A stretch of DNA of 64,000 nucleotides from Phoronis australis (Eukaryota; Animalia; Phoronida). The translations under genes were made by a program, and so were the position numbers. The stretch spans positions 1 through 64,000 of the forward strand of contig NMRA01000473.1 in assembly GCA_002633005.1 (NCBI GenBank). Reading direction: 5' to 3'. The stretch's first letter is position 1. The number at the start of each line of letters is the position of its first letter. Below, piece after piece: positions 5,308 to 56,423 of this stretch. The notes under the pieces were generated by a model that saw only the letters and a program-made list of their open reading frames with translations, made no database searches and was not told where the DNA came from.

Positions 5308-7395
5308 TTAAAGCTGGCTATTAACCAGTGCTCTGTTCTATTCTATAAACATGGTCTCAACATATTTTTTACTTAGAAAAGAAGTTATTTCTGTGTTTAC
5401 AGCCAACTGATAGTCTGTGTCTTCAACCGATAGTCTGTGTTTACAACTGATAGTCTGTGTTTACAACTGATAGTCTGTGTTTACTACAAATTGTCTGTAT
5501 TTACAACCAACTGATTGTCTGTGCTTACAACTGATAGTCTGTGTTTACAACCTATAGTCTGTTTACAACCAACTGATAGTCTGTGTTTACAACTTATAGT
5601 CTGTTTACAACCAACTCATGGATCTTCATTACTCAAAACCATGCTTAATGCTTTAAAGCTGACAGTGACAACCCTGTATGAAGAGTCTGGTGACAAGCAA
5701 TACTGATTTGTCAGCTCTTTCATAGCCTGGAATCTCTCTGATGATAAGGAGCAGCTTGAAACCAATTTCTACTGTGAGTGGTCTGAATTAAAATTTCTTT
5801 TTTTGTGATTGAATTAGGATATGTATCCGCTTTAAGTACTTGGTAACCAGGCCTTATTCTGGACTCCCAGTGAATGAAAGCGATGACTACCTTCATTTGA
5901 AGTTAGTTGGGTTCATGGATGCACCAACGTGGGCGCATATCAGTGTTTTGTCTAGATCTTGTTTCAGAATATTCTGGTATTTAAAAGTAGGATAGTAGGA
6001 TTTTTGCTCAGTTCTAAAATCTGTAGAAGTTTATACCTTTTGTATTGTTCTTGTACATCTTTATATTAACTTATAGTTTTATTTTCTTTTTAATCCAAAT
6101 GTAGATTTATCTGGCCTGTGCCAAACTAAATTGAGGTTGATTTACTCCCTTAGTATTGTTTTGTTTATACAGAGTATACGCCACTNGAACTCGGTGTATT
6201 TTTAGGGGTTTTACATCGAAGTTTGATGATTTATTGGTGTAAAACGATGAATTCAAGCGATAAGCTGACACTAGTAACCGTGTTGTGAACTGCTGAACAG
6301 ACTGCGTGTGAAACCAATTACGTCATTGGATAATTTCAACGCCTCAGTCTGCCATCAGGTGTCAGGTAACGCAACCGTACGTGCCGTTATGGAGTAGAAC
6401 TACTCGATCTAAATTGATACAAATTAGGTTGTTTTTGGGGTGGCATGCTCCTTTAAAGCTGGCTATTAACCAGTGCTCTGTTCTAGATGGAAACTTCTAC
6501 AAACATGGTCTCAACATATTTTTTACTTAGATAAGAAGTAATTTCTGCGTTTACAGCCAACTGATAGTCTGTGTTTACAACCGATTGTCCGACTGTATTT
6601 ACAACCAACTGATTGTCTGTGCTTATTTGATAGTCTGTGTTTACAATCAACTGATAGTCTGTGTTTACAACCTATAGTCTAAGTTTACAACCAACTAATA
6701 GTCTATGTTTACAACCTGTAGTCTGTTTACAACCAACTGGTAGTCTGTGTTTACAACTGATAGTCCGTGTTTACAACCAACTGATAGTCTGTTTTTACAA
6801 CCTGTAGTCTGTGTTTACAACCAACTCATGGATCTTCCTTACTCAAAACCATGCTTAATGCTTTAAAACTGACAGTGACAACCCTGTATGAAGAGTCTGG
6901 TGACAAGGAATACTGATTTGTCAGCTCTTTCATAGGCCTGGAATCTCTCTGAGGATAAGGAGCAGCTTGAAACCAATTTCTACTGTGAGTGGTCTGAATT
7001 AAAATTTCTTTTTTTGTGATTGAATTAGGATATGTATCCGCTTTAAGTACTTGGTAACCAGGCCTTATTCTGGACTCCCAGTGAATGAAAGCGATGACTA
7101 CCTTCATTCGAAGTTAGTTGGCTTCATGGATGCACCAAGTGGGCGCATATCAATGTTTTGTCTTGATCTTGTTTCACAATATTCTGGTATTTAAAAGTAG
7201 GATAGTAGTATTTTTGCTCAATTCTAAAATCTGTAGAAGTTTATACCTTTTGTATTGTTCTTGTACATCTTTATATTAACTTATAGTTTTATTTTCTTTT
7301 TAATCCAAATGTAGATTTATCTGGCCTGTGCCAAACTAAATTGAGGTTGATTTACTCCCTTAGTAGTGTTTTGTTTATACAGAGTATACGCCACT
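5308..7395. repeat. About 0.9-kb direct duplication (5308-6185 and 6453-7395) across a single-N join; probably two uncollapsed haplotypes
   Basis: Near-identical copies, both starting TTAAAGCTGGCTATTAACC and ending GAGTATACGCCACT; copy 1 stops exactly at N 6186; both contain a variable TGATAGTCTGTGTTTACAAC minisatellite (about 5390-5615 and 6545-6826). Confidence 0.85.
6187..6452 (+). mobile_element. Kolobok family A, terminal fragment cut off by the N join
   Basis: Matches 22424-22680; ends GGGTGGCATGCTCCT followed by TTAA (6453-6456). Confidence 0.9.
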
Positions 7396-7421
7396 AGAAA
7401 TTCTTGTTATTGTACTTGTAC

Positions 7422-7427
7422 TTTATT
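7422..7427 (-). promoter_or_regulatory. Candidate polyadenylation signal of the propeller-phosphatase gene
   Basis: AATAAA on the minus strand about 65 nt after the stop codon at 7493. Confidence 0.45.
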
Positions 7428-7492
7428 TTGGCAATGTTAGTTTCAATAAAGTAACAACAAATTAGGAACAGATGCTCATTGATTTACTTTCT

Positions 7493-8506
7493 CTATTTGG
7501 GATTCTTTTTCGTAAAATCATAAACCTTTTTGCCGTATTTATCGACGTAGGTCACGGTTACGTAATTGCCTTGTATTTCGAACCCGGTAAATCCATATTG
7601 CTTTTTGCTCAAGAAGATCTTTACACCTTTATCTTTAACGTCACGAACAGCTTGCGAGTCTTCCGAGTATAATTTGGACCCTGAACCGGATATGACGTAG
7701 TCGACGATGTGGCTTGAAGATGGTTTGGCTAAATGTTGAAGGTTATGGTCATGGCCGGCGATGTACAGCGCTACTTTGTATTGCTCCATCAGAGGGCGAT
7801 AGTATTGGTACATGCCACGTGTGGAACTGAAACGCCCGTGTGGACCTGTAGAGAACACTGGGTGGTGGCCGCACACAATGATCCAGTCCCCTCTCGAGTT
7901 TCTCAACTCATTCTTGAACCAATTCAGTTGTGTCTTGTCGTTACCAGATCGTCCCGTCTGGGTGTCGATCATTATAAAGTGCACTCGCTGTGAGCCAGCT
8001 TGCTTGTAAAAGGAGTAGTAAAGTTTGGGAAAGTACCATCGGCTGTCTCGTCGACCAAGTTCTATCTGGTGGTTCGCCCGGTCATAACGGTGATCGTGGT
8101 TTCCAACGATGACATACCACGGTTTCTTGAGTGATGATTGGTCGTACACCTTTCTCCACGTGTTGTCAACTTGACTGTCTCTATAACTTGTTATTCCGTT
8201 CTCATAAAAGTTGTCGCCCAATGCCAACACGAACTGGGCGTTTTTGGATTTCGCCCAATCAGCCATCTTGTCTGCTACCGCTCGTTGACTACTGCCTGGC
8301 TTCCCCCAATCGCCAAGGCCGACGAAAGTGAGTCTGTCACCTGATGCTCTAGCCGGTTTCGTTATGACATTGCCTGGGTCGACTACAGGCTTGGTGGAAT
8401 CTCCTCGTGCAAAGTAATGCAGGTCCTCGCCTGATCCCTCGCTGATTGTGTAGTATCCCTTACTGTCGTGGCTCCAGGCGATGGACTCACGTACGGACTC
8501 GTGCAC
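7493..8506 (-). CDS. Fusion gene exon 5: last propeller blade, linker and complete tartrate-resistant/purple acid phosphatase (ACP5-like) domain
   Basis: ctag|GTG; RESIAWSHDSKGYYTISEG, then GDWG, GDNFY, GNHD, GHHP, GHDH and SGSG motifs; stop at 7493-7495. Confidence 0.95.
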   Translation of the reverse strand: MHESVRESIAWSHDSKGYYTISEGSGEDLHYFARGDSTKPVVDPGNVITKPARASGDRLTFVGLGDWGKPGSSQRAVADKMADWAKSKNAQFVLALGDNFYENGITSYRDSQVDNTWRKVYDQSSLKKPWYVIVGNHDHRYDRANHQIELGRRDSRWYFPKLYYSFYKQAGSQRVHFIMIDTQTGRSGNDKTQLNWFKNELRNSRGDWIIVCGHHPVFSTGPHGRFSSTRGMYQYYRPLMEQYKVALYIAGHDHNLQHLAKPSSSHIVDYVISGSGSKLYSEDSQAVRDVKDKGVKIFLSKKQYGFTGFEIQGNYVTVTYVDKYGKKVYDFTKKNPK

Positions 8507-11500
8507 CTAGGTACCAAAGTAACAAGCAATATGAAAAAACAAACCAATTTTGGGAACTTGAAGATGTAATTAAAGCACACACACTTGTAAAAAACATTGT
8601 GTTATTTACTCACTGGCGGATCTAGAACATTGAAGGAGTGGCGACCACATATTATCGAAGGAAAAGAGTGTTCACACCCCTCTTAAAAGGTCACGCTGAC
8701 GGAGTGTTTTCATTCTGACAGTTGTCTGAGGGGGTGGTTTGCCTTCACTAGTCTTTATTAGATTAGCTTTTATGTTACTCACGTTAGAATTGATTTCTAG
8801 GCTTCACAAGAACGGACACTTAGTTAATGCTCCAGTCCTATGCAATACTCAGCTGTTGGCTTTCCGACTACTCCAGACGGTGCTCATCAATTTATTGTCA
8901 CTGAATTGTCGCACTCGACATACTGTTGCCCTGGCGAAAGTATATGTCGAGTGCAACAGTGTATGCAACCAAAATCGACATTGTCACTCCCAACTATGTT
9001 GGAAGACTGTCTGCTTGCCAGGGTACATAGGCGGATCCAGAGACAGAGGAAGGCCCACGAAATGATATGAAACCCAAAAACGAGCAACGATGTAGGAAGT
9101 TGAATTGGGAAAAGATCATTGCAGGAGATGGTTGGTGATGAAAAGCACACGTGATTCCAATCTCGTTTGCGGGGGCGTTGAATTTGCATTGAAAATCTAG
9201 ATACTGAAGACATGTTTTACCCCTTCCAACTTTCGGCAACCCCCACACGAACTCATGTTCCTCATTTTGACTCCCTGTCACACCCAACCCATGTAGGAGT
9301 CCTTTAGGAGGTGGTGTAACTTCTGGGGGTGTGTCGGAAATGCGCCTTTCACATAAGTTTTTAAATTTGAAGAAATTGCATCATAAAATCGTTTGACGTC
9401 GACTTCTTGTTCGTCTGTGGTGAATTTTCTCTACCAAAACATTTAGGTACTCTTATAGGCCAATCCAATGGGGCTATTCGGAAAATCTACAATAACTAGA
9501 GGGCCCGCGTGTGCTAGTGGTGATAGATTAACAGCTTCGATTTCGCGAGCCCTTTAAATACATGGTGAAATGGCTTGCAGCCGTGCCAACTGAATCTGAG
9601 ATTGCGTGAAAAGGGTGCTTCTATGAGAGAAGTAAGCACGACCTTATACAAAGGTAAGGTTTGTGATTATTTTAACGATTATTCCAAATTCTACCGATGC
9701 CTGTTAACTGAGGTACTCGCCGATGTCGACTTCGCGGCAGTCGCCAGTCGGGTTAATCTTTGTTTGTTGTGATATGTGATACGATAATTGACGTAGCAAT
9801 CGGGATCTTTTCGTACATCAAAGCATTATTATTATTTGGAATGATTTCTAACAGTTTATCAGTGACAGTTACACCAATCAATGCTGAATGTTTATGCCGT
9901 CAACTCGATACAGGTTAATGAGTTAAGATTACAATCCAAGCCCAATGGCAAAGGGTACATGAAAGACCAGAAGGCTTTTTCCTGCTCTCAAAAAAGGATT
10001 TAAAGTTAAAAATATACCTCAACGAATGACTCGGGAACAAATATATATATCGAAATACTCGGAACTCTACTCGAAAACTAACTAACTCCATGGCATATCT
10101 CAAGTAACTCGAAGGACATTTAAATCCTGGGCCCAGGAAACTGCATATTTGTAAAGATGCAACATTGTATATTGTCGCTGTGCTTGAACTGGCAATGCTT
10201 TTTGAAACATTGGCTTGAGTGCCTCTGAAACTGTATTGCATGCTTTGGTACTGGGAATGCTTTTGAAGTATCCAAACTGAATTGTTTAATAGGCTATGAA
10301 CCGGCACTCCATCACAAAAAATAACTTTTGATTTGGATCTCTTACTGTGACAAAATTGGTTTCCGGTCTCGACGTGGGATTGCTGCCGCCTATTTTGGTC
10401 ATGTGACAAAACGTGAACATGTACCTATATCCGAAATTAGGCAAAATCATGCTTGAAAGCAATGTTTTGGATATGCACGCAACCTATTTATTTTAAAGGA
10501 CGTTTTAGCTAGTTGGCTCGAATGTAGTGGAGAATATTGCACAGTACGCCAAGACAAACCGCATTTTAAACACCTATTTTAATTAAAATTGTTTTTCAGT
10601 TGAAAACTGTTTCCATTTTCCCTTGTTTTATGCAGGAGAATTCAATCAAATGGCTTAAGTCAATCAAGCATTCTCTTAAAGCCTATATTGAAAGGTAACT
10701 CTTATAAATATGTCTCTGAGTTCCATAAACTGTCTAATAACTGTTAGGCTTATTGGTTTGCTTTTGTGTATGTCACCGCGAGAATCAAACAGTTGCGAAT
10801 AGCACGGCGCACGCAATGGTGTTCCACTCAGACCCCTATTCAATACAGCTGTTATCGACCTTTTGTTGTCTGTGCAGGGATCTGGTGGTGACGAAAAGGC
10901 AACTTCACCTACCATTTGACGAGCCTACATTTGCGTGGTTAAACTCTCGTTTTCTTATTTTGCTAAGGCTTTGCGAGGAATACCTGGTTAGCTCAGTACA
11001 TCTAAAATAACAAAATTCCGTTGAGGTTAGGCTTTAATTTCCTTCTCAGCATTATTCTATAGTTACCATAAACCCAGATACGTTAATTATACACTCAAGC
11101 GTATCTAACAGAACGTCTTATATATGTTATAGTCTGAGAAATGCTTTATAAAACTAAGTCGCTTAGGAATGTTTTGCACGCGGGCAAGATTATACACTTA
11201 TATCGAGGACCTTGCGTGTGTCAGTATCCACAGCAAAGCATGAGCCTGTACAAAGGAGATGCACTCATGCCTATAATCAATTAGGCACATGCGCATACAC
11301 ATATAACAATTTTCCTTGAAGAACGCATGAATTCGAATATAGGCGCATGGGCCTACATACGCGCATATGCGGTAGGCAAATGGTTTTCAAAATCAAAGTT
11401 GCCTGCTTCCACTGCTTGTATGGCTTTCAAAGTGTCATAAAATGCTGATCCAAAGTACGTCTGACTCCCTCGCAAAGTGAAATTTTTGTTTCGCCACTGT

Positions 11501-14500
11501 CGTCTGACTCACTATATTTGGATTCGTCCATGCCTTTACTGAGACCAACACGCAGTATCGTATAGGCCTGCATGTACAAAGCCATGCCATTTTGACAGAT
11601 ATAGGGCTACAATACATGTATGTGTCGAGTGCAACAATATGTCACAACAATCACGGCGAATTCCAGTCGATAAATATTGCAACCAATTTCAGTTCAAACA
11701 AAGGGTATGAACTCGTCAATGTTGGTTTAGAAGTGTAAATAAATGTGAATAAGATTTTTTGACCCCAGAACAGGTTTTGTAGGTGTTTTAGTAGTGACGT
11801 CATGATATTTGAGCTCCGATTTTCGAAATGATGGTAACGCCAACGGCATAAGAACTGCATCACTGCGCGTCATCTTTTTGAAGTGCACCATATTTTTAAA
11901 AGCTTGTCAAACTTCGGCTATTTTGGAAAGTAAAGAAATATAGACCCACCACCACCACCACCCAGCATGTCCACTCACCACCGGACATAAGCTTGTATTT
12001 GAAGCCTTGTACTACATGCTTACGTTTGGAACCACAAGTGGATTTCTACTTGTGACAGCATTGATGACGCTTTCACCACTTCGTCGTTTCCAGTAGTAAT
12101 TCTTTCCGTGATCTGTCATAAGAATTTCTCTGCCGTCTGGTGATATATCAGCACCTCGTGGAAACTGGGCATTTGATGTTACAACAGGCATTGACTTTGC
12201 CTCCATAAGGTTAACCTTGTTGCCTGAATTCCATCCACTCGATGGTACCTGAAGTTGTCAAAGCCATGTTTAACGACTCCGTGACCGGCGTAAATCAACG
12301 TGAAATTTCGACAAAAAGAGGTTGCTACTAAGGGCGTAAACGCCACTGAATCAGGGGAGCGTTGAGTAGAAGCGAGAACGTCGCAAAATCATAATGGCGC
12401 AAGACCTCGCAAAATTGTGCCGCTGGCAAGTGTGCTCGAAACTCTAGCAAAAGGATAGCCACTGAAGCGATTGGTCAGTGAGTAGAGGTTGGTATGTTGA
12501 CTTATGGGGTGAAATTCACCGCTTTCGTTCCATATTAAGCGGCTCACGTGACGTCATATTGTTGTTTGAATCTGACCGTAAGCGGATAAGGGACCTATTT
12601 AGTACATTAATGCAAAATACTGACACATAGGAACAAATAAAACGGACAGAGCATTATCAGCAGGATCCTTAAACTAAGGACAAAGAGGAGTTTCATTTTA
12701 ATTTTAAAATATCCCAAAAGTGATATCACTGGCCACAGTACCAAAATATGAGGATTTTGGTATCTATTTTATCAAAACCGACAATTTCAAAGTTAGAGCC
12801 ATGACCCCCTCTTCCTGTCAATTTAAAAAACAGCAAAACAATATCAGATGCGGGAATTATAGTTCGTATTAAACAAAAATGTGTAGGCCCCATAGATGCG
12901 CTTGGAACATCTACCATCGGCCGGAAAATTGCAGACCACCTAGCTTGGAGGCTGATACTCAACTATAGTGGCCTTTATAATAACTTTCTTATTTCTGACC
13001 TCGATAAACTTCGTTGGTGCAGCCTGGTTAGCAGGGGTGCCTTTCATTTAAACTTTATGGTGTACTAAGTCACATATAGCCTCACACCTAATTACCTCAC
13101 AACTAAATTCAAAGCAGCCAGAGATTCTCACAATTACAAAACTGGAGCGAGTGTTTCTGGCTGTCTGGTACCATATAAACCTAAAACCAACTGGGGTAAA
13201 AGAACTTTTGGCTACAGAGGTGCTGGCACTTACAACGGGCTGGGGACTGCCGTCGCGAACGCGCTCAATCAATGTCCACGTCTTCAAACAGAAATACTGG
13301 GACTTTGTGCGTGGTGCGGTACTGTAGGCTCCGCTCATCATTCTTCCACTCTGTTTTTTCTTATTTATTCATCTAATTATACATATCAAATAATTTTTAA
13401 ACTAATTTAATTTAGGCCCTAGTTATTAATCTTTTCAATCTAATTATACATATCTCTCTGTATTATTTCCGACTGGGCCCACTTTAAAATGAGTGTATAA
13501 ACTGAAGTGGTCACCCAGTCTTTTAAAGAAGTTTAAATAAATAAACAAAAAATAAAGCTGTCTGACTAGTGCTGAAAATTTTTGCTCAGTACCGGAGGAA
13601 AGATGCTTACAGCCCAAGGTGGGCTTGCCGCCCACATTTGCCGACTCACTCATGTTGCGCACAACCGAGCGCCTGGTAAGTTACTCCAGGCACCCCATTC
13701 GATAACTCACCCGATAAATCACCGCCTGCTGACCGCTCCCAGCTAGAGAGATAAGATACACGTTTCCCCTCTCGTCCACCATCACTGCCTCGCATTCCCG
13801 TGTGGTTGGCCAGTGAATCCTCAGAACATCTGGTTTGACAGTGGCCGTTGACAGTGACGACGGCTCCTTGACCCTGTAGAGAATGACCAGATTGGAACTG
13901 GTGTAGCCAGAATCCACCACGTAGATGTAGTAGTCGTTGTTGGGACCTTTTCCAACAGCCATGTCCTCCCAGTCCTGTTAAATAAAGGATATCCAGTTCA
14001 TTATTCTGTTAAACGCTTCCGTTGCGTTAAATCTCTATACATCAAAATGTGTCTGAACACAGTCCTACAATAGCTTGGGATAAGGCTCCACCTAGTTTCC
14101 TTTTTTGAAAAAAGCCAAACCTGTATTGGTCTTTATTCGTGAGCATATGAAGATTGCTGGTTCGACCCTTGTCAAACGGATGCGCTGTTTTTTCTGTCGT
14201 AAGAACGAATAGAAACATGGTTAGGTCTCACAGTTGAAGTTGGTAAAGAAGATTGAACAACGATCTTGCACACTCACTGCTTCAAAAGAGACGTAGAAAA
14301 TAAAACTAGACTCGCCAAATATTTTCAGAGTCCAAGGTCTACAGTATAAACCTATGACATTATAAAAATATGTTGCCCCATTTGAAAATGGTCTTTCGGT
14401 GTTCTGAAGTCAAAATTATCATATAAGAACTGCAATTTTCAGATTATGTGTTCTTCATAGCGACATCTGTTGCAGTGCACATCAACTCTCTTACTCAGAG

Positions 14501-16454
14501 TGGATGCAGGTCAGGCGATTGGTTTTCTTTGTACAATATGTGCTGTACAATAACACGGTGACGAAGTGAGAAATATCTAATTCTTAAAATCCTGAATTTA
14601 CATTCGACAAAAAGAAAGTTGTAGTCTAGTCAGTACATTTTTTTCTAATATCATCGTGGCATATCCTTAAAAGGTTGTCGTTATTCCCAAAACGCAATGT
14701 TGTTCCGCACCGTTCGTTTAACCGCCTTACTGGAAACCATCTTAGAAACTCGTTGAACACTGTACGTCCGTAATATATGTTCTCGATGGGGAGATATGAC
14801 GCACAGAGAGGTTCTTGTAGTCTTTAAAGTGTGTGAGGGAAATGCAAGTGTTAGATCAGGCTGTGTTATCAAATTTGAAGATGCGAAATCTATAAGCTAT
14901 GAAAAATAAATAAAAAATAATTTAAAAAATAAATGAAATGCAGCTCAAACTGTTTGCAGAAGAATTAATTCAAGCAACGGTATTTTCAGATGTTTAGGGA
15001 TGATAGACATCATTTATGCATCATGAAATTTATAACAGGTATATATATATATATATATAATATGCAAATGACTGGCATGGTAGTGTTGCATTCCAATTCA
15101 GAGGTAACGTATTCTTAGCTAAAACACAAAATTCTCAAAAATGTCATTATTTGTCTATATCATTTGCTAACATTTCATGTTTCCGTATTTTCAACGCTTT
15201 AAATTTTTTATGAATTTTAGAGCACCAAACCTGACCCAAAAGTCGCATGCACTTTAATATTCAGAAAAGACTGTTTTAACCTTAATGTGCGTTTTACCTC
15301 TCCAGCGATAACAAATATTCTAGACACGCCGGTTTTCAACAAGTTTTCAAGATGAAGGCAACAAAGGGTGCATGGGGCAACAGTTAGCCTTGGTGGAGGA
15401 GAACCCATGTTCAGATCCCAATACTACACTGTTGATAACCATTAAATAAGGAGGTTAGACTGTCGACGAAGAAATATCACAATCCCCATTTTTAGCAATA
15501 AAACTTCATAGTAAAAACTATAAAGACCTGTATAATAGAAATGCACCCAGTTATTGCCATGTGAATCTTCACTTGAGATTTGGACTTTGAATATAAAATA
15601 GCAATGTCCCTTTACGAAGAATTGAAAAGAAAAACAGCTAGAGAATATTAGGGCTCGCTATGCTTTCACGTGCTATCGGACCCACGACACGCCAGTGAGA
15701 CCCGAGTGATACGGGCAACAATAAATGTGACAAAATTGTTAAGAAACACAATCATAATGCTACAGATAATGGTAAAGGGCCAAGGTAAGTAACCATTTAC
15801 CCAGAACATACCTTATTGCTCGCGCCACTGAACGTGAGCATGCCACGTCTTACGCCAGAGTTCAGTGAAACGGCTACAACCCTTGGTTGGTCACCAGAGT
15901 CATTGTGGATCCAAATCCGGTCCGTGTGCTGGTGACTCGCTGCTAAACCGGAAGCCTCGGAGACCTTGCTCGTGCTGACGGTTACTTGTTTCACTCCGTC
16001 TTCAAACAATTGAGCACGACTCTGGGCCACTACAGGACATTCAAGGAGGCAGATGTTACTGTCAATACCATGAGCTCACTTAGAGGGATTCGCACATTTG
16101 TGACTTCAGTTCTAGATTTGTTGCATTATTTGCATTAATTATTCAGTCAGACACTTTGTCTCTGATTATCACTCTTTTCGTGTCATTTGAAAGTCGTCGC
16201 GTCTATGAAAAATGCTGGCTTTGGGATACCTAAATGAATTTTGTTTATTAACAAATAAAATACGAGTAAACGGGGTCGTCCAATAATCACACCTGACTAG
16301 AACGTACAACATTTAGGTTCACCTGAGCTAAGGTTTGGTGCTTGAATGTGTGGTAGAACGCTTTTGTATAGGCTATGTAGCCGACGAATTTGACGTGTAC
16401 ATAGGTATACTCACCTAGTGCCACAAAGACAAGTGATGCACGCATTAACAACAT
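7493..16454 (-). CDS. Five-exon gene for a secreted bacterial-type beta-propeller-like + purple acid phosphatase (ACP5/TRAP-like) fusion protein, 586 aa
   Basis: Exons 16454-16415, 16029-15812, 13974-13711, 12248-12024, 8506-7493; all introns GT-AG, phases 1,0,0,0; 1761 nt open frame; signal peptide MLLMRASLVFVALVAQSRA; all purple acid phosphatase metal motifs present. Confidence 0.88.
9470..9960 (+). mobile_element. Partial copy of the ISL2EU-like element, in intron 4 of the fusion gene
   Basis: Starts AT|GGGGCTATTCGGA; inverted match to about 55912-56423, including the SAP-like segment. Confidence 0.75.
12024..12248 (-). CDS. Fusion gene exon 4
   Basis: cttcag|GTA...AAC|gtaagc; 75 codons containing GADISPDGREIL...YYW.R. 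Confidence 0.88.
13050..13310 (+). mobile_element. CR1/L2-type LINE 3' fragment
   Basis: PKTNWGKRTFGYRGAGTYNGL...VFKQK resembles the CR1/L2 ORF2 tail P.T..GKRSF.YRG...WN.L...FK. Confidence 0.65.
13711..13974 (-). CDS. Fusion gene exon 3
   Basis: taacag|GAC...CGG|gtgagt; 88 codons, DWEDMAVG...YIYVVDSG...LYRVKEP...CEAVMVD...YLIS. Confidence 0.9.
15812..16029 (-). CDS. Fusion gene exon 2
   Basis: cctgtag|TG...AAG|gtatgt; SEASGLAASHQHTDRIWIHNDSGDQPRVVAV. Confidence 0.9.
16415..16454 (-). CDS. Fusion gene exon 1 (signal peptide)
   Basis: ATG at 16454, MLLMRASLVFVAL+G|gtgagt; phase 1 joins exon 2; in-frame ATGs further upstream (e.g. 16499) are alternative starts. Confidence 0.75.
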
Positions 16455-16862: not shown

Positions 16863-18519
16863 AGGAGCATGCCACCCAAAAACAACCTATTTTGTAGATC
16901 GAGTAGTTCTACTCGATAACGGCACGTTCGGTTGCGTTACCCGACACCTGACGGCAGACGGAGGTGTTGAAATTATCCAATGACGTAATTGGTTTCACAT
17001 GCAGTCTGTTCACGGTAGTTCACCACACGGGTTACTGGTGTCAGCTTATCGCGTCATCGTTTAACACCGATAAATCATCAAACTTCGATGTAAAACCCTT
17101 AAAAATACACCGAGTTCTTATAAAAACGTGTTGCTTTATTTCGCTCTTACGGATTTATTGGTATTTGGACACACCGTAGCCTACAAAGTTCGGCAGGCCA
17201 ATTTACCAACTACAAGGAGTTTGGGGTCTGTTCGGAGATAAATTCGAAGTATTTTTCAGTGAAATACAGACAGGAGAACCTATAACTGTGTTGTTAAGAC
17301 TTATGATTTTTTGAGGTCTTAACACACAAAACGCCTGCTATCCCGACCAGTAGCTCTGAACCCGATCAGGCCCGTCGGGGCCGGACTAATGACTCGTTAT
17401 CCCGGCCATAAGTGACTCGGAACCCGATCAGGCCCGTCGCCGCCGCGCCGGGACTGGCACGAACATAAACCAGCTTGAGTTTTAAACTAAACCTGAAGCC
17501 AGGAAAAGACTATAATAGTGAGCCACAGAAATAATGGAAATTAGCCAAGAAACTGAAAAACTCATGTCGGGGGCCGCGAACAAGTCGGGCTACCCTTCCA
17601 CAGACCGTCAGGGCAAAGGTTGTACAGCAACAATGACTTGAATAATGTATATGTATATCCAAATAAAGATTCCCCTAACATGTGACCATAGCATATAAAA
17701 TCGACTAATTGTTTCGCAACAGCTTTCTGTCAGCAAACACTGAATTAGCGTGCGCTCACACGGCCTCGGTGCCCGGTCAATTACCTTTGATGACGGCATC
17801 AAAAGCCGATAACGCAGTGGTTTATTTATTGCTGGCTTCTCAACATTTGCACTCACGAATACTGCAAAGGCATTACAAATTAGACAGACTTTGTTTCAGT
17901 TTTATATAAGCATTGGTTAGGATGAGAATAATTCATTTTGAAACAGAACGCAGTATAATACTAACGTCTACATGGCAACTCGCCCGGCAATTAGTCAAGA
18001 GCTCATCCGACGAAAACTTCAGGGATCGGATCGTTAGGTTTCACAGGCTATCAATTCGAACCGGAATACACTGATCACGAAATACTAGAGAGGTGCCATG
18101 AAAAAGACAACGGAAAGTATGGATAGTTCTTTGGTAAGCCGGAATTCGTCAGAGAAATCACTGTCGACGAAATGCCGGCCACAGACACGGAGATATTTCA
18201 CGGCCTCATACTTGCTATTAACAGCGTACCTTTCATTCTTCACTACCATGAGCCATTTCCTAAGCATTTCGGAAGGAAGCCGAAAAAAGATATACCCGCT
18301 TTCTTCGCAGCTTCATAGTTCGGACAAGCGAGAACGATGCACCACGATATAGCGACATTCACTCTGCAGAGAACCACTGACGTTGCTGCGTCGTTTCTCA
18401 CCCTCCTCACAGTTTAATGCGACACCTCTCGGCAAGGTGAGGTCGACAGTATAAGATGCGATGTGTATATAGACCTATTAAGACTGTAAAAAAATAATTA
18501 AATCGGGTGGCATTCTCCT
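16863..18519 (-). mobile_element. Kolobok family A, copy K1 (non-autonomous, THAP remnant)
   Basis: TTAA|AGGAGCATGCCACCC ... GGGTGGCATTCTCCT|TTAA; minus-strand CIVLACPN...GISFF...RKWL...RVCGRHFVDSDF is a THAP domain, frameshifted. Confidence 0.92.
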
Positions 18520-23300: not shown

Positions 23301-24415
23301 ACATGGCCGTATTTCCCTCTACTGATTCAACGCGTATGGGATAAAATACCATACGTGACCTTGCAGAGGCAGTTTTGTGTTGTGAAGTTGATAACTTTTT
23401 TAAAATGGGGGACGCATTCATTACAAAACAGCTGAAGGAACCGACAATCTGTTCTAGAAAGTTTTAAGCCATTATTGTGATGCTGTTCAAATGTGTGACA
23501 AAAATTAAAATATTATTTACTCTCCCCTGGGGTATAATTCAAAGATTAAAATCGGTGGAAAATCTATTTTCTACAAGAACTGGTATGAAAGAAGAGTCTA
23601 TCATGTGTGTGTCTTGTTTAATGCTGAAGGTTCTTTTATGTCATACGAAGAACTCTGTAAGTTATAACTTTCAACTTCCAATACTAGAATTCTATGGATT
23701 AAGAAGTGCAACCTTAACAGTGTACAGGGGTCTTAAGAACAAACAATACCTTTTACCAAATTTTCTAAGATATATTTATAAAGTTTTGCATAACAAATCA
23801 CACCTTAGTACAGTCACTTCAGACAGCTTGTAAATATAAAAACGAGTGGTCATCTGAGATAAATAAAAACGTTATAAATGAAGTAAATTTTAGTGACCCT
23901 GATACATGATGGAGAAAAGTAAATAAACTCCCCAAAAGATACAAAATTGCGTTGGTATCAATACCGCTTAATTCACAGAATATTGCTAGCCAATAATTAT
24001 TTGCATCAAATTAAAATAAAAACAAGTGCTTTATGCTCTTTCTGTGATGAACATAGTGAAATTTTTCTCCATCTCTTTTGGGAATGTCGTCTTGTCTCCG
24101 GTTTCTGGCTCCTGTTTGCTGAATGGTTGAAACAAACATATGTAAATTTTCATGTGCAAAAACAAGTTTTTTGTTTTATGTGTTGTTCATACTAACAATA
24201 ATTACATATTTAGCCAAAAGTTTGTTAAAAAAATCTCAATTTCCAAATGTTCGTAAACTTTATTAAGTTACATCATGAAGAAAACACCGTACTTGTTGAC
24301 TAGTGATTTAATGTTATTATTTGTAAATGATGTATACTGTATTGTTTTATGTGACATGTAATTATCATGCTAGAGCAAAATAAAAATATTAAAGATAAAA
24401 AATAAATAAAAATAA
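20390..24415 (+). mobile_element. Decayed L1/Tx1-type non-LTR retrotransposon, split by Kolobok K3
   Basis: Endonuclease motifs GVAILF, LVNIYGPN, FTW (before K3) and SLDYFLV, TDH (after K3); C-terminal zf-RVT WYQYRLIHRIL...CSFC...HLFWEC at 23947-24195; A-rich tail near 24400; ends approximate. Confidence 0.8.
21013..22680 (+). mobile_element. Kolobok family A, copy K3 (complete ends, inverted relative to K1/K2)
   Basis: TTAA (21009-21012) AGGAGAATGCCACCC ... GGGTGGCATGCTCCT TTAA (22681-22684); THAP remnant at about 21178-21384. Confidence 0.92.
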
Positions 24416-54662: not shown

Positions 54663-56423
54663 GGGGCTATTCGGAGAATTCTCCTCGCGGTGTCGCTGCT
54701 GTACTAGTGGTGATTGAATTGCGCATGCGTGGCTGTCTGCATGTAAACAACTGGTAAAAGNNNNNNNNNNNNNNNNNNNNNNNNNNNNNNNNNNNNNNNN
54801 NNNNNNNNNNNNNNNNNNNNNNNNNNNNNNNNNNNNNNNNNNNNNNNNNNNNNNNNNNNNNNNNNNNNNNNNNNNNNNNNNNNNNNNNNNNNNNNNNNNN
54901 NNNNNNNNNNNNNNNNNNNNNNNNNNNNNNNNNNNNNNNNNNNNNNNNNNNNNNNNNNNNNNNNNNNNNNNNNNNNNNNNNNNNNNNNNNNNNNNNNNNN
55001 NNNNNNNNNNNNNNNNNNNNNNNNNNNNNNNNNNNNNNNNNNNNNNNNNNNNNNNNNNNNNNNNNNNNNNNNNNNNNNNNNNNNNNNNNNNNNNNNNNNN
55101 NNNNNNNNNNNNNNNNNNNNNNNNNNNNNNNNNNNNNNNNNNNNNNNNNNNNNNNNNNNNNNNNNNNNNNNNNNNNNNNNNNNNNNNNNNNNNNNNNNNN
55201 NNNNNNNNNNNNNNNNNNNNNNNNNNNNNNNNNNNNNNNNNNNNNNNNNNNNNNNNNNNNNNNNNNNNNNNNNNNNNNNNNNNNNNNNNNNNNNNNNNNN
55301 NNNNNNNNNNNNNNNNNNNNNNNNNNNNNNNNNNNNNNNNNNNNNNNNNNNNNNNNNNNNNNNNNNNNNNNNNNNNNNNNNNNNNNNNNNNNNNNNNNNN
55401 NNNNNNNNNNNNNNNNNNNNNNNNNNNNNNNNNNNNNNNNNNNNNNNNNNNNNNNNAAGAATTACCTCACCATGCTCTTTTCCCCAAACATGAATTACCT
55501 GTTATTTCCACACATTCAGTTGTACCAAATATTACAACCCCCCATGCCAATCTTCCCTCGGGACCTGAATAAGTAATTTAACAAAATGACTTTAAAAATA
55601 GCTGTTCCTTTTCAAAGACTTTGTTCGTTGTCTCCAATATTGAAAGTAGGCTTTGACAACAGATCTGCACTGGATGATGGGAAGATCTTGTTGGTTAGCT
55701 GCAGTCAAATGCTAAAAACCAATTTTTGTCCATTCAGGGACAGTGCAGAAGCGATGCATATCTCCTCTGCACGGTACAAGCCTTCAAACCTAAAAACCAA
55801 AGGTTACGTGAAAACAGACGTGATACATTTCCATTTCAACGTGCAATAGATTTCCAGAAGACATATGATAGGGAGTAAACAAAATTAGTCTAATGCAATG
55901 GATATTTATCACTCACGTACCCTTTGCCATTGGGATTGGATTGTAATCTTAACTCATTAACCTGTATCGAGTTCACAGCATAAACATTCAGCATTGATTG
56001 ATGTAACTGTCACTGATAAACTTTTAGAAATCATTCCAAACAATAATAATGTTTTGATGTACGAAAAGATCCCGATTGCTATGTCAAGTATCGTATAACA
56101 TATAATCACAACATACAAAGATTAACCAGACTCTGGCTGGCGACTGACTGCCGCGAAGCCGACATCGGCGAGTGCCTCAGTTAACAGGCATAGGTAGAAT
56201 AATCATGGAATAATCGTTAAAATAATCACAATCCTTACCTTTGTACGAGGTCACGCTTACTTCCTCTCATAAAAGCACCCCTTTTACGCAATCTCAGATT
56301 CAGTTGGCACGGCTGCAAGCCATTTCACCATGTATTTAAAGGGCTCGCGAAATCGAGGCTGTTAATCTATCACCACTAGTACACGCACGCCCTCTAGTTA
56401 TTGCAGATTTTCCGAATAGCCCC
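54663..56423 (-). mobile_element. ISL2EU-like DNA transposon remnant spanning the N gap
   Basis: AT|GGGGCTATTCGGA ... TCCGAATAGCCCC|AT; spliced minus-strand SAP-like coding QLNLRLRKRGAFMRGSKRDLVQR|L. Confidence 0.65.
54761..55456. other. Assembly gap
   Basis: Run of Ns. Confidence 1.

What the first reader, a model, noticed from the sequence alone, without database searches (positions are those of the whole stretch)
7493..16454. Secreted two-domain protein: bacterial-type propeller fused to an intact purple acid phosphatase
Seen: five GT-AG exons join into one 586-aa frame with a signal peptide (aa 1-19), a roughly 265-aa domain (EASGLAAS, WIHNDSG, DWEDMAVG, YVVDSG, CEAVMVD, GADISPDG, ESIAW...GYYTISEG), a 24-aa Pro/Lys/Thr linker and an ACP5-like phosphatase (aa 308-586) with all seven metal ligands. 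The last propeller blade and the phosphatase share one exon, so the fusion does not depend on my splice model. Established: animal ACP5/TRAP enzymes are single-domain. Inference: the N-terminal motifs match a poorly characterised bacterial beta-propeller family (SdiA-regulated/phytase-like fold). I know no described animal protein with this architecture. It could be an extracellular phosphate-scavenging, biomineralisation or mucosal-defence enzyme, with the propeller binding Ca2+ or substrate.
Basis: partly seen in the sequence, partly recalled or inferred. Interest (0 to 1): 0.82.

Follow-up and report, generated by a model that had tools for sequence, protein, structure and literature searches.

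The report
Secreted propeller–purple phosphatase fusion gene
This spliced, expressed gene of a likely marine invertebrate joins a predicted five-bladed propeller domain of unknown function, shared with molluscs and bacteria, to a purple acid phosphatase domain that keeps all seven metal ligands, making one likely secreted enzyme that likely strips phosphate from molecules outside the cell; no other animal protein of this build turned up, but a few bacteria have the same pairing.

Summary
The gene is real. Five GT-AG exons give one 586-aa frame. RNA reads join exons 3-4-5 in 2 of 3 raw-read runs (64-79 reads per joint) and support the exon 2-3 joint; exon 1-2 is untested.

Two corrections. First, the propeller is not new to animals: its best matches are uncharacterised mollusc proteins (37%), with which it groups (100/97). 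An abalone homolog models as a five-bladed propeller nearest YjiK (Z 22.2), but the family misses the Pfam SdiA and phytase-like cut-offs. Second, the phosphatase keeps all seven ligands but is not the ACP5 ortholog: it groups with two single-domain Owenia proteins (100/97) and lacks most of the inhibitory loop.

No other animal fusion was found. The pairing does occur in bacteria: one metagenome protein and 3 of 80 GTDB loci, and other family members carry two further phosphoesterase folds.

Best reading: a lineage-specific, likely convergent fusion giving a secreted phosphatase that needs no proteolytic activation, with a likely metal-binding accessory propeller. Substrate untested. New variant; interest 0.48.

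The parts
16415..16454 (-). Exon 1 coding part (aa 1-13 plus one base): start codon and hydrophobic core of the predicted signal peptide
   Evidence: frame, GT donor, hydropathy; joint to exon 2 not tested by reads
15812..16029 (-). Exon 2 (aa 14-86): end of signal peptide (predicted cut after aa 19), closing strand and blade 1 of the propeller (E38, H55-N56-D57)
   Evidence: matches a Spirosoma lipoprotein directly next to the exon 3 match; loose end
13711..13974 (-). Exon 3 (aa 87-174): blade 2 and most of blade 3 (D87, E89, D90, D107, E123, E148, D153)
   Evidence: depth about 103-115 in X2 and X3; 80 homologs
12024..12248 (-). Exon 4 (aa 175-249): end of blade 3 and blade 4 (D208)
   Evidence: (both joints read through)
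8405..8506 (-). Exon 5, first part (aa 250-283): blade 5 of the propeller (E256, E272)
8333..8404 (-). Exon 5, linker (aa 284-307), low confidence in the model and likely flexible
   Evidence: pLDDT under 50 for exon-5 residues 34-48
7493..8332 (-). Exon 5, purple acid phosphatase domain (aa 308-586) and stop codon; no intron; seven ligands; short loop; calculated pI 9.6
   Evidence: PF00149, E 3e-19; human PAP, E 7e-42
7422..7427 (-). Likely polyadenylation signal
   Evidence: hexamer; the X1 contig ends at 7409

Best explanation
The gene encodes a likely secreted two-domain enzyme whose C-terminal purple acid phosphatase domain would hydrolyse phosphate monoesters or anhydrides outside the cell at a predicted two-metal centre, likely without needing proteolytic activation, while the predicted five-bladed propeller likely binds a metal such as Ca2+ and holds the enzyme on a polyanionic substrate or surface. 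Shown: the spliced transcript from exon 2 onward, the seven ligands, the short loop, the basic phosphatase domain, and the acidic residues at the start of each blade. Inferred: secretion, activity, metal binding by the propeller and the tethering role. The fusion likely arose within this animal lineage, when an intronless phosphatase of the subfamily also found in Owenia came to lie in frame behind the last blade of a mollusc-type propeller gene. That would be independent of the bacterial propeller-phosphoesterase fusions.
For: Transcript. Selection: 16 of the 26 listed exonic differences between reads and window are synonymous and none changes a metal ligand (216 further rows were not shown). 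Phosphatase: ligands; model pLDDT 86.5, best matches pig and human PAP, TM 0.75-0.76, rmsd 2.3-2.4. Loop: 16 residues between the flanking anchors against 30-35 in 36 of 41 canonical ACP5-clade rows, and a 14-residue gap against human; that loop restrains mammalian TRAP until cut (PMC7081696, passages). Propeller: abalone homolog P0123 (96 of 256 aligned residues identical) models at pLDDT 91.6. E38, E89, D90, E148, D208, E256 and E272 are kept, each conserved in 90-99% of 128 non-mollusc domains. Partners: the catalytic Pfam domains clearly fused to this family were phosphoesterases: PF00149 in P0232 and in 3 of 26 long GTDB frames, PF03372 in 10 of 32 long hits, PF04185 in P0145. Origin: the propeller groups with molluscs (100/97; AU p 0.034 against joining P0232) and the phosphatase with Owenia P0001 and P0002 (100/97, 43% and 40% against 28% for P0232).
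Against: No activity, metal or localisation data. The propeller was folded only through a homolog. It differs at five near-invariant non-mollusc positions (D110Y, N111T, K163L, Q254V, G255R), so it may have lost the family's original site. The fused-partner pattern rests on few events (the 10 PF03372 proteins are of similar length, and the two put in a tree grouped together), and 16 of 26 long GTDB frames had no Pfam match. Independence of the fusion is not fully shown: AU did not reject window + P0232 for the phosphatase (p 0.216) or, on the quick 67-row tree, for the propeller (p 0.563; the constrained tree scored higher). The signal-peptide exon is not linked by reads.
Confidence: 0.6

Rival explanations
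1. Both domains are catalytic. The propeller is itself a Ca2+-dependent hydrolase (for example of phytate, nucleotides or polyphosphate) and the protein works as a two-step phosphate-release enzyme.
For: Most family members stand alone or carry only binding or anchoring domains (CBM96, PKD, Ig, fn3, LamG, WSC), as catalytic domains often do. The window copy keeps H55-N56-D57 and the acidic ring more fully than many mollusc copies. The nearest folds after YjiK are enzymes, the bacterial glutaminyl cyclases (Z 20.6 and 19.8). A PF13449-family gene and a metallophosphoesterase with consecutive locus tags are both induced by phosphate limitation in Nodularia (PMC9846622, passages), which is a loose analogy only.
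Against: The window copy has replaced D110, N111, K163 and Q254, each 87-98% conserved outside molluscs. No solved sequence relative exists to place a catalytic site. PF13449 scores stay below the cut-off.
Confidence: 0.2
2. It is a surface or mucus defence protein: the propeller binds microbial glycans like a lectin and aims a phosphatase or iron-radical-generating domain at microbes.
For: Expression is on in 2 of 3 raw-read runs of one study and off in the third, which fits a tissue-specific product. The family is expanded in abalones with WSC, sushi and tandem forms. Animal PAPs are linked to bacterial killing (PMC2267794, start of the abstract in the listing).
Against: No tissue labels are available. 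No lectin family matched the propeller itself. Glycan binding is untested.
Confidence: 0.12
3. The fused gene came as one unit from a bacterium, and the single-domain mollusc propellers and Owenia phosphatases are later pieces of it.
For: P0232 has the same domain order with a short linker and aligns over aa 19-530 in one stretch at 31%; it keeps the Tyr-bearing motif. Two of three AU tests did not reject joining the window to P0232. The phosphatase has no intron and lies outside the animal ACP5 clade.
Against: The P0232 phosphatase is only 28% identical and is a long branch among bacterial rows. The careful propeller tree rejects the join (p 0.034). The phosphoesterase domains of the three GTDB fusions are 23-26% identical over short stretches.
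Confidence: 0.08

Closest known systems
Mammalian purple acid phosphatase / TRAP / ACP5 (PDB 1WAR, 2BQ8, 1UTE, 7OV2)
   Same: Small-PAP catalytic fold (TM about 0.76, rmsd 2.3), all seven ligands including the Tyr, and a signal-peptide-like N-terminus.
   Different: Carries a 265-aa propeller in front; lacks most of the inhibitory loop; groups outside the clade holding fish, sea urchin, mollusc, cnidarian and Owenia ACP5-like rows; the domain is encoded without introns.
Owenia fusiformis unnamed PAPs P0001 and P0002
   Same: Nearest relatives of the phosphatase (43% and 40%; 100/97), with the same short loop of 16 and 18 residues.
   Different: Single-domain proteins of 314 and 310 aa with a hydrophobic leader directly before the phosphatase; no propeller.
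Uncharacterised mollusc propeller proteins (Haliotis, Saccostrea, Dreissena, Mercenaria, Sinanodonta, Ylistrum, Ruditapes)
   Same: Nearest relatives of the propeller (up to 37% over the whole domain; 100/97).
   Different: Stand alone, in tandem, or with WSC, Ig or sushi domains; none of those seen has a phosphatase. Many have lost acidic residues that the window keeps.
E. coli YjiK C-terminal domain (PDB 3QQZ; its membership of PF06977 SdiA-regulated is recalled) and bacterial glutaminyl cyclases (3MBR, 3NOK)
   Same: Best fold matches of the homolog model: Z 22.2, rmsd 3.0, 225 aligned; Z 20.6 and 19.8; the next row is 15.2.
   Different: 8-13% identity; a Fibrella homolog found no significant PDB match by sequence; Pfam cut-offs not reached.
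Metagenome protein P0232 (propeller + PF00149 + LamG) and GTDB fusions L015, L035, L048
   Same: Same propeller family in front of a calcineurin-like phosphoesterase; P0232 has them directly adjacent and keeps the Tyr motif.
   Different: Longer multi-domain proteins with distant phosphoesterase domains; unnamed or without a described function.

Membership tests
Purple acid phosphatases (small catalytic domain) | Seven metal ligands in five motifs, including the Fe(III)-binding Tyr (PMC2553084, passages) | tested here: met
   D315, D347, Y350, N385, H463, H501, H503; aligned to human PAP
Purple acid phosphatases (small catalytic domain) | PAP fold | tested here: met
   Exon 5 model pLDDT 86.5; top 8 Foldseek rows are mammalian PAPs, TM 0.75-0.76
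Purple acid phosphatases (small catalytic domain) | Purple colour, metal content, tartrate-resistant activity at acid pH | not testable with these tools
   Needs purified protein
ACP5/TRAP orthologs | Groups with the animal ACP5 clade | tested here: not met
   Groups with Owenia P0001 and P0002 apart from a 17-row clade (98/93) that holds another Owenia protein, P0031; forcing them together is rejected, p 0.004, group named after the tree was seen
ACP5/TRAP orthologs | Protease-sensitive inhibitory loop of about 20 residues | tested here: not met
   16 residues between anchors against 30-35 in 36 of 41 canonical rows; the other 5 have 19-25
ACP5/TRAP orthologs | Single catalytic domain of about 35 kDa | tested here: not met
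   Reads join the propeller exons to the phosphatase exon; mature mass about 64 kDa
PF06977 SdiA-regulated (YjiK-like) | Reaches the Pfam curated score | tested here: not met
   No hit for the window's exon pieces (pieces score lower than a whole domain would); 1 of 65 homologs hits, at 16 bits against 21
PF06977 SdiA-regulated (YjiK-like) | YjiK-like propeller fold | tested here: met
   On the homolog P0123, not the window protein: 3QQZ Z 22.2, rmsd 3.0, 225 aligned; five blades mapped to the window
PF13449 Phytase-like | Reaches the Pfam curated score | tested here: not met
   7 of 65 homologs hit weakly, best 25.9 bits against 27.6; Atlas nearest named cluster 0.90, while the top 30 clusters have no common Pfam family
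Beta-propeller phytases (six blades, Ca2+-dependent; recalled) | Six-bladed fold | tested here: not met
   Five blades counted from the strands of the homolog model
Bacterial-type glutaminyl cyclases | Sequence family and catalytic residues | tested here: inconclusive
   Fold similar (Z 20.6); no such Pfam family among the hits of 65 homologs; catalytic residues not mapped

The most novel reading that the evidence does not exclude
The propeller is an undescribed phosphate-ester-handling domain that entered a spiralian ancestor from bacteria. This animal has rebuilt, from two separately inherited parts, the same propeller-phosphoesterase pairing that bacteria assembled several times with three different phosphoesterase folds. 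The product is an always-on secreted two-site enzyme that frees phosphate from phytate, polyphosphate or dissolved organic phosphorus at a body surface. Assaying it would give the first function for a family estimated at about 3000 GTDB stretches and expanded in molluscs.
Probability: 0.2. Interest if true: 0.75.

Novelty: new variant of a known kind. Interest (0 to 1): 0.48.

Why it matters
The phosphatase is a known kind of enzyme, but this build was not found in any other animal in the searches run. The fusion gives a handle on a widespread propeller family of unknown function (about 3000 GTDB stretches by the scan's estimate; many uncharacterised mollusc genes). It also exposes a second animal small-PAP subfamily, shared with Owenia, that lacks the inhibitory loop and would be a natural model of an always-active TRAP-like enzyme. 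If it scavenges organic phosphate, that would be an unexpected nutritional or mineralisation tool in an invertebrate.

Tried and rejected
Splice or assembly artefact: rejected, since reads cross the joints and blade 5 shares a frame with the phosphatase. Pseudogene: rejected; one open frame, expressed, 16 of 26 listed exonic differences synonymous. Bacterial contamination: rejected by the spliceosomal introns and read-through joints.

Searches that found nothing useful: exon 3 against longer proteins, 0 of 58 candidates; NCBIfam, no family for the three propeller exons or two bacterial homologs; PDB by sequence for a bacterial homolog; Foldseek on the homolog model gave mostly WD40 rows with TM about 0.4-0.5, with 3QQZ at rank 33 but TM 0.58; JGI metagenome scan with exon 5 gave 5 distant loci of 25-40% identity, matching only the phosphatase part; no second copy of either domain in the window. 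No whole genome is held, so paralogs in this animal are unchecked. No RNA holder was listed by index; the raw-read runs came by species label. Two of 80 GTDB loci have a separate PF00149 gene within the flank; with no background count this is not used as evidence. GC3 is the same in both domains (0.549 and 0.548), so composition shows no recent insertion.

Papers: ten searches listed nothing that, from title and abstract start, describes this fusion or the mollusc propeller family. One search was too loose (one term sufficed) and none of its 25 rows held 'SdiA-regulated'; one search returned 0. The tunicate six-bladed propeller in PMC13390645 (passages) is an SMP-30/gluconolactonase-like protein, not this family. 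The library lacks most subscription papers, and no supplements were read; shell, byssus or mucus proteome tables could list these proteins. Earlier findings: none by sequence, words or nearby place.
Full report
Observation. The model holds at the stated coordinates. Five - strand exons (16454-16415, 16029-15812, 13974-13711, 12248-12024, 8506-7493) give 1761 nt, 586 aa and one stop, with GT..AG at all four introns. All eight quoted motifs are in place, and the only hydrophobic stretch is aa 1-17. Exon 5 alone is a 337-codon frame that hits PF00149 at E 3e-19 and human PAP at E 7e-42.

Expression. Four runs of one coded organism were laid on 7200-14400. X2 and X3 show the exon 5/4 joint in 76 and 79 reads and the exon 4/3 joint in 75 and 64, each from over 40 start places. 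One 1721-nt contig of X1 (RNA by guess) runs through exons 3, 4 and 5 and ends at 7409, just past a likely polyadenylation hexamer at 7427-7422. A loose end at the exon 3 acceptor, in 67 and 88 reads, matches the end of exon 2 at 28 of 30 letters by my comparison. X4, from the same study as X2 and X3, has no joints and almost no exon depth, so expression depends on the sample; tissues are not given. The exon 1/2 joint was not tested. Of the 40 differences listed, 26 are exonic: 16 synonymous and 10 not (two in one codon), and none changes a ligand; 216 more rows were not shown.

The phosphatase. It has D315, D347, Y350, N385, H463, H501 and H503, plus H386 and H472. The seven-ligand, five-motif definition is from PMC2553084 (passages). 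A model of exon 5 (pLDDT 86.5) matches pig, human and rat PAP best (TM 0.75-0.76). Among 116 homologs of 185-590 aa, the best are two single-domain Owenia fusiformis proteins at 43% and 40%. In a careful tree of 50 of the 111 domains, the window groups with these two (100/97) and then with three unnamed short-contig proteins (99/93). This group lies apart from a 17-row animal ACP5 clade (98/93) that holds a different Owenia protein. Forcing the three into that clade is rejected (p 0.004; group chosen after seeing the tree). The loop that restrains mammalian TRAP until it is cut (PMC7081696, passages) is short here: 16 residues between anchors against 30-35 in 36 of 41 canonical rows. The domain is basic (pI 9.6, net +15) and has no intron. 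So it works like a TRAP but is not the ACP5 ortholog, and it is predicted to be active without cleavage.

The propeller. Exons 2 and 3 hit adjacent parts of one Spirosoma plasmid lipoprotein, and the whole domain aligns with it and a Fibrella protein at 28-30%. A full HMMER scan with exon 3 gave 80 hits. Of 30 looked up, 11 are mollusc proteins, 1 dinoflagellate, 2 named bacteria and 16 unnamed. The best whole-domain match is an abalone protein (37%, E 2e-53). The homolog P0123 models at pLDDT 91.6. Its nearest solved folds are YjiK (Z 22.2, rmsd 3.0, 225 aligned) and two bacterial glutaminyl cyclases (Z 20.6, 19.8), with the next row at 15.2. Mapped to the window, five blades start near aa 39, 90, 147, 206 and 255, closed by a strand at 26-31. 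Acidic residues at those blade starts (E38, E89/D90, E148, D208, E256) are conserved in 90-99% of 128 non-mollusc domains and kept here, while D110, N111, K163, Q254 and G255 are replaced. A central metal site is my inference from this pattern and from recalled propeller structures. The family does not reach the Pfam cut-offs: 7 of 65 homologs hit PF13449 weakly and 1 hits PF06977 weakly, and the top 30 Atlas clusters have no common family. The GTDB scan estimates about 3000 stretches.

The pairing elsewhere. None of the 116 phosphatase hits has a propeller match, and none of the propeller hits or their listed cluster members has a phosphatase match. Of 32 long propeller proteins (556-2000 aa, 7994 candidates scored), the 5 named mollusc ones carry a second propeller, WSC, Ig or sushi domains. 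One metagenome protein, P0232, has propeller + PF00149 + LamG, and 10 have PF03372. P0145 has PF04185. Of 80 GTDB loci, 26 propeller frames had over 150 extra residues; 10 of these matched Pfam, 3 with PF00149. So the clear catalytic partners seen are phosphoesterases of three folds, although the events are few and many partner regions are unnamed. These word-based searches can miss distant or unannotated animal fusions.

Origin. The propeller is sister to the mollusc clade in both a quick 67-row tree (SH 92) and a careful 40-row tree (100/97). Joining it to P0232 is rejected on the careful set (p 0.034) but not on the quick set (p 0.563, where the free search was suboptimal). Joining the phosphatase to P0232 is not rejected (p 0.216), but P0232 is a long branch at 28% identity. 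An independent fusion in this animal's lineage is the simplest reading. An intronless phosphatase captured behind the propeller's last exon would explain the shared exon (inference). GC3 gives no sign that this was recent. That the propeller entered animals from bacteria is plausible from its patchy spread but was not tested with a rooted tree.

Mechanism. Most likely (0.6): a secreted, basic, loop-less purple acid phosphatase that releases phosphate from polyanionic esters or anhydrides outside the cell, with the propeller as a metal-binding tether. Rivals: a catalytic propeller (0.2), a lectin-aimed defence protein (0.12), and transfer of the fused unit from bacteria (0.08). No activity is shown.

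Verdict. Observation confirmed; interpretation partly supported. Both domains belong to families already present in other invertebrates, and the pairing recurs in bacteria, but this build was not found in another animal, nor in the listings of ten paper searches. New variant of a known kind; interest 0.48.

Noticed in passing
window 18088-18413 (-): THAP-domain relic about 1.6 kb upstream of exon 1 (PF05485, E 3.5e-6); its start appears to lie in a neighbouring frame, so it is likely a decayed transposon piece.
   Followed up: partly
window 23923-24192 (+): zf-RVT match (PF13966, E 2e-7), likely a retroelement remnant.
   Followed up: no
window about 9466-9962 and 10808-11037: Two stretches in intron 4 draw many reads on both strands with loose ends in all four runs: dispersed repeats transcribed from other loci.
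   Followed up: no
window about 5394-5995 and 6544-7194: A 20-24-bp tandem array and the sequence after it occur twice downstream of the gene: a local duplication or repeat element.
   Followed up: no
P0001, P0002, P0010, P0017: A small-PAP subfamily with a short loop, outside the ACP5 clade, has two Owenia members and unnamed short-contig members; it may be an undescribed animal PAP lineage.
   Followed up: partly
P0117, P0139, P0180, P0189, P0224, P0225, P0231, P0238: The propeller family is expanded in abalones and bivalves as single, tandem and WSC-, Ig- or sushi-fused forms, none with a described function.
   Followed up: partly
P0118 cluster: Dinoflagellate tandem-propeller proteins of the same family group away from the animal ones, which may reflect a separate acquisition.
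   Followed up: no
P0239-P0248: Ten metagenome proteins of about 630 aa fuse this propeller to an endonuclease/exonuclease/phosphatase domain.
   Followed up: partly
window 54761-55456 and 6186: Assembly gaps (runs of N); none lies within the gene.
   Followed up: no
   Followed up: no
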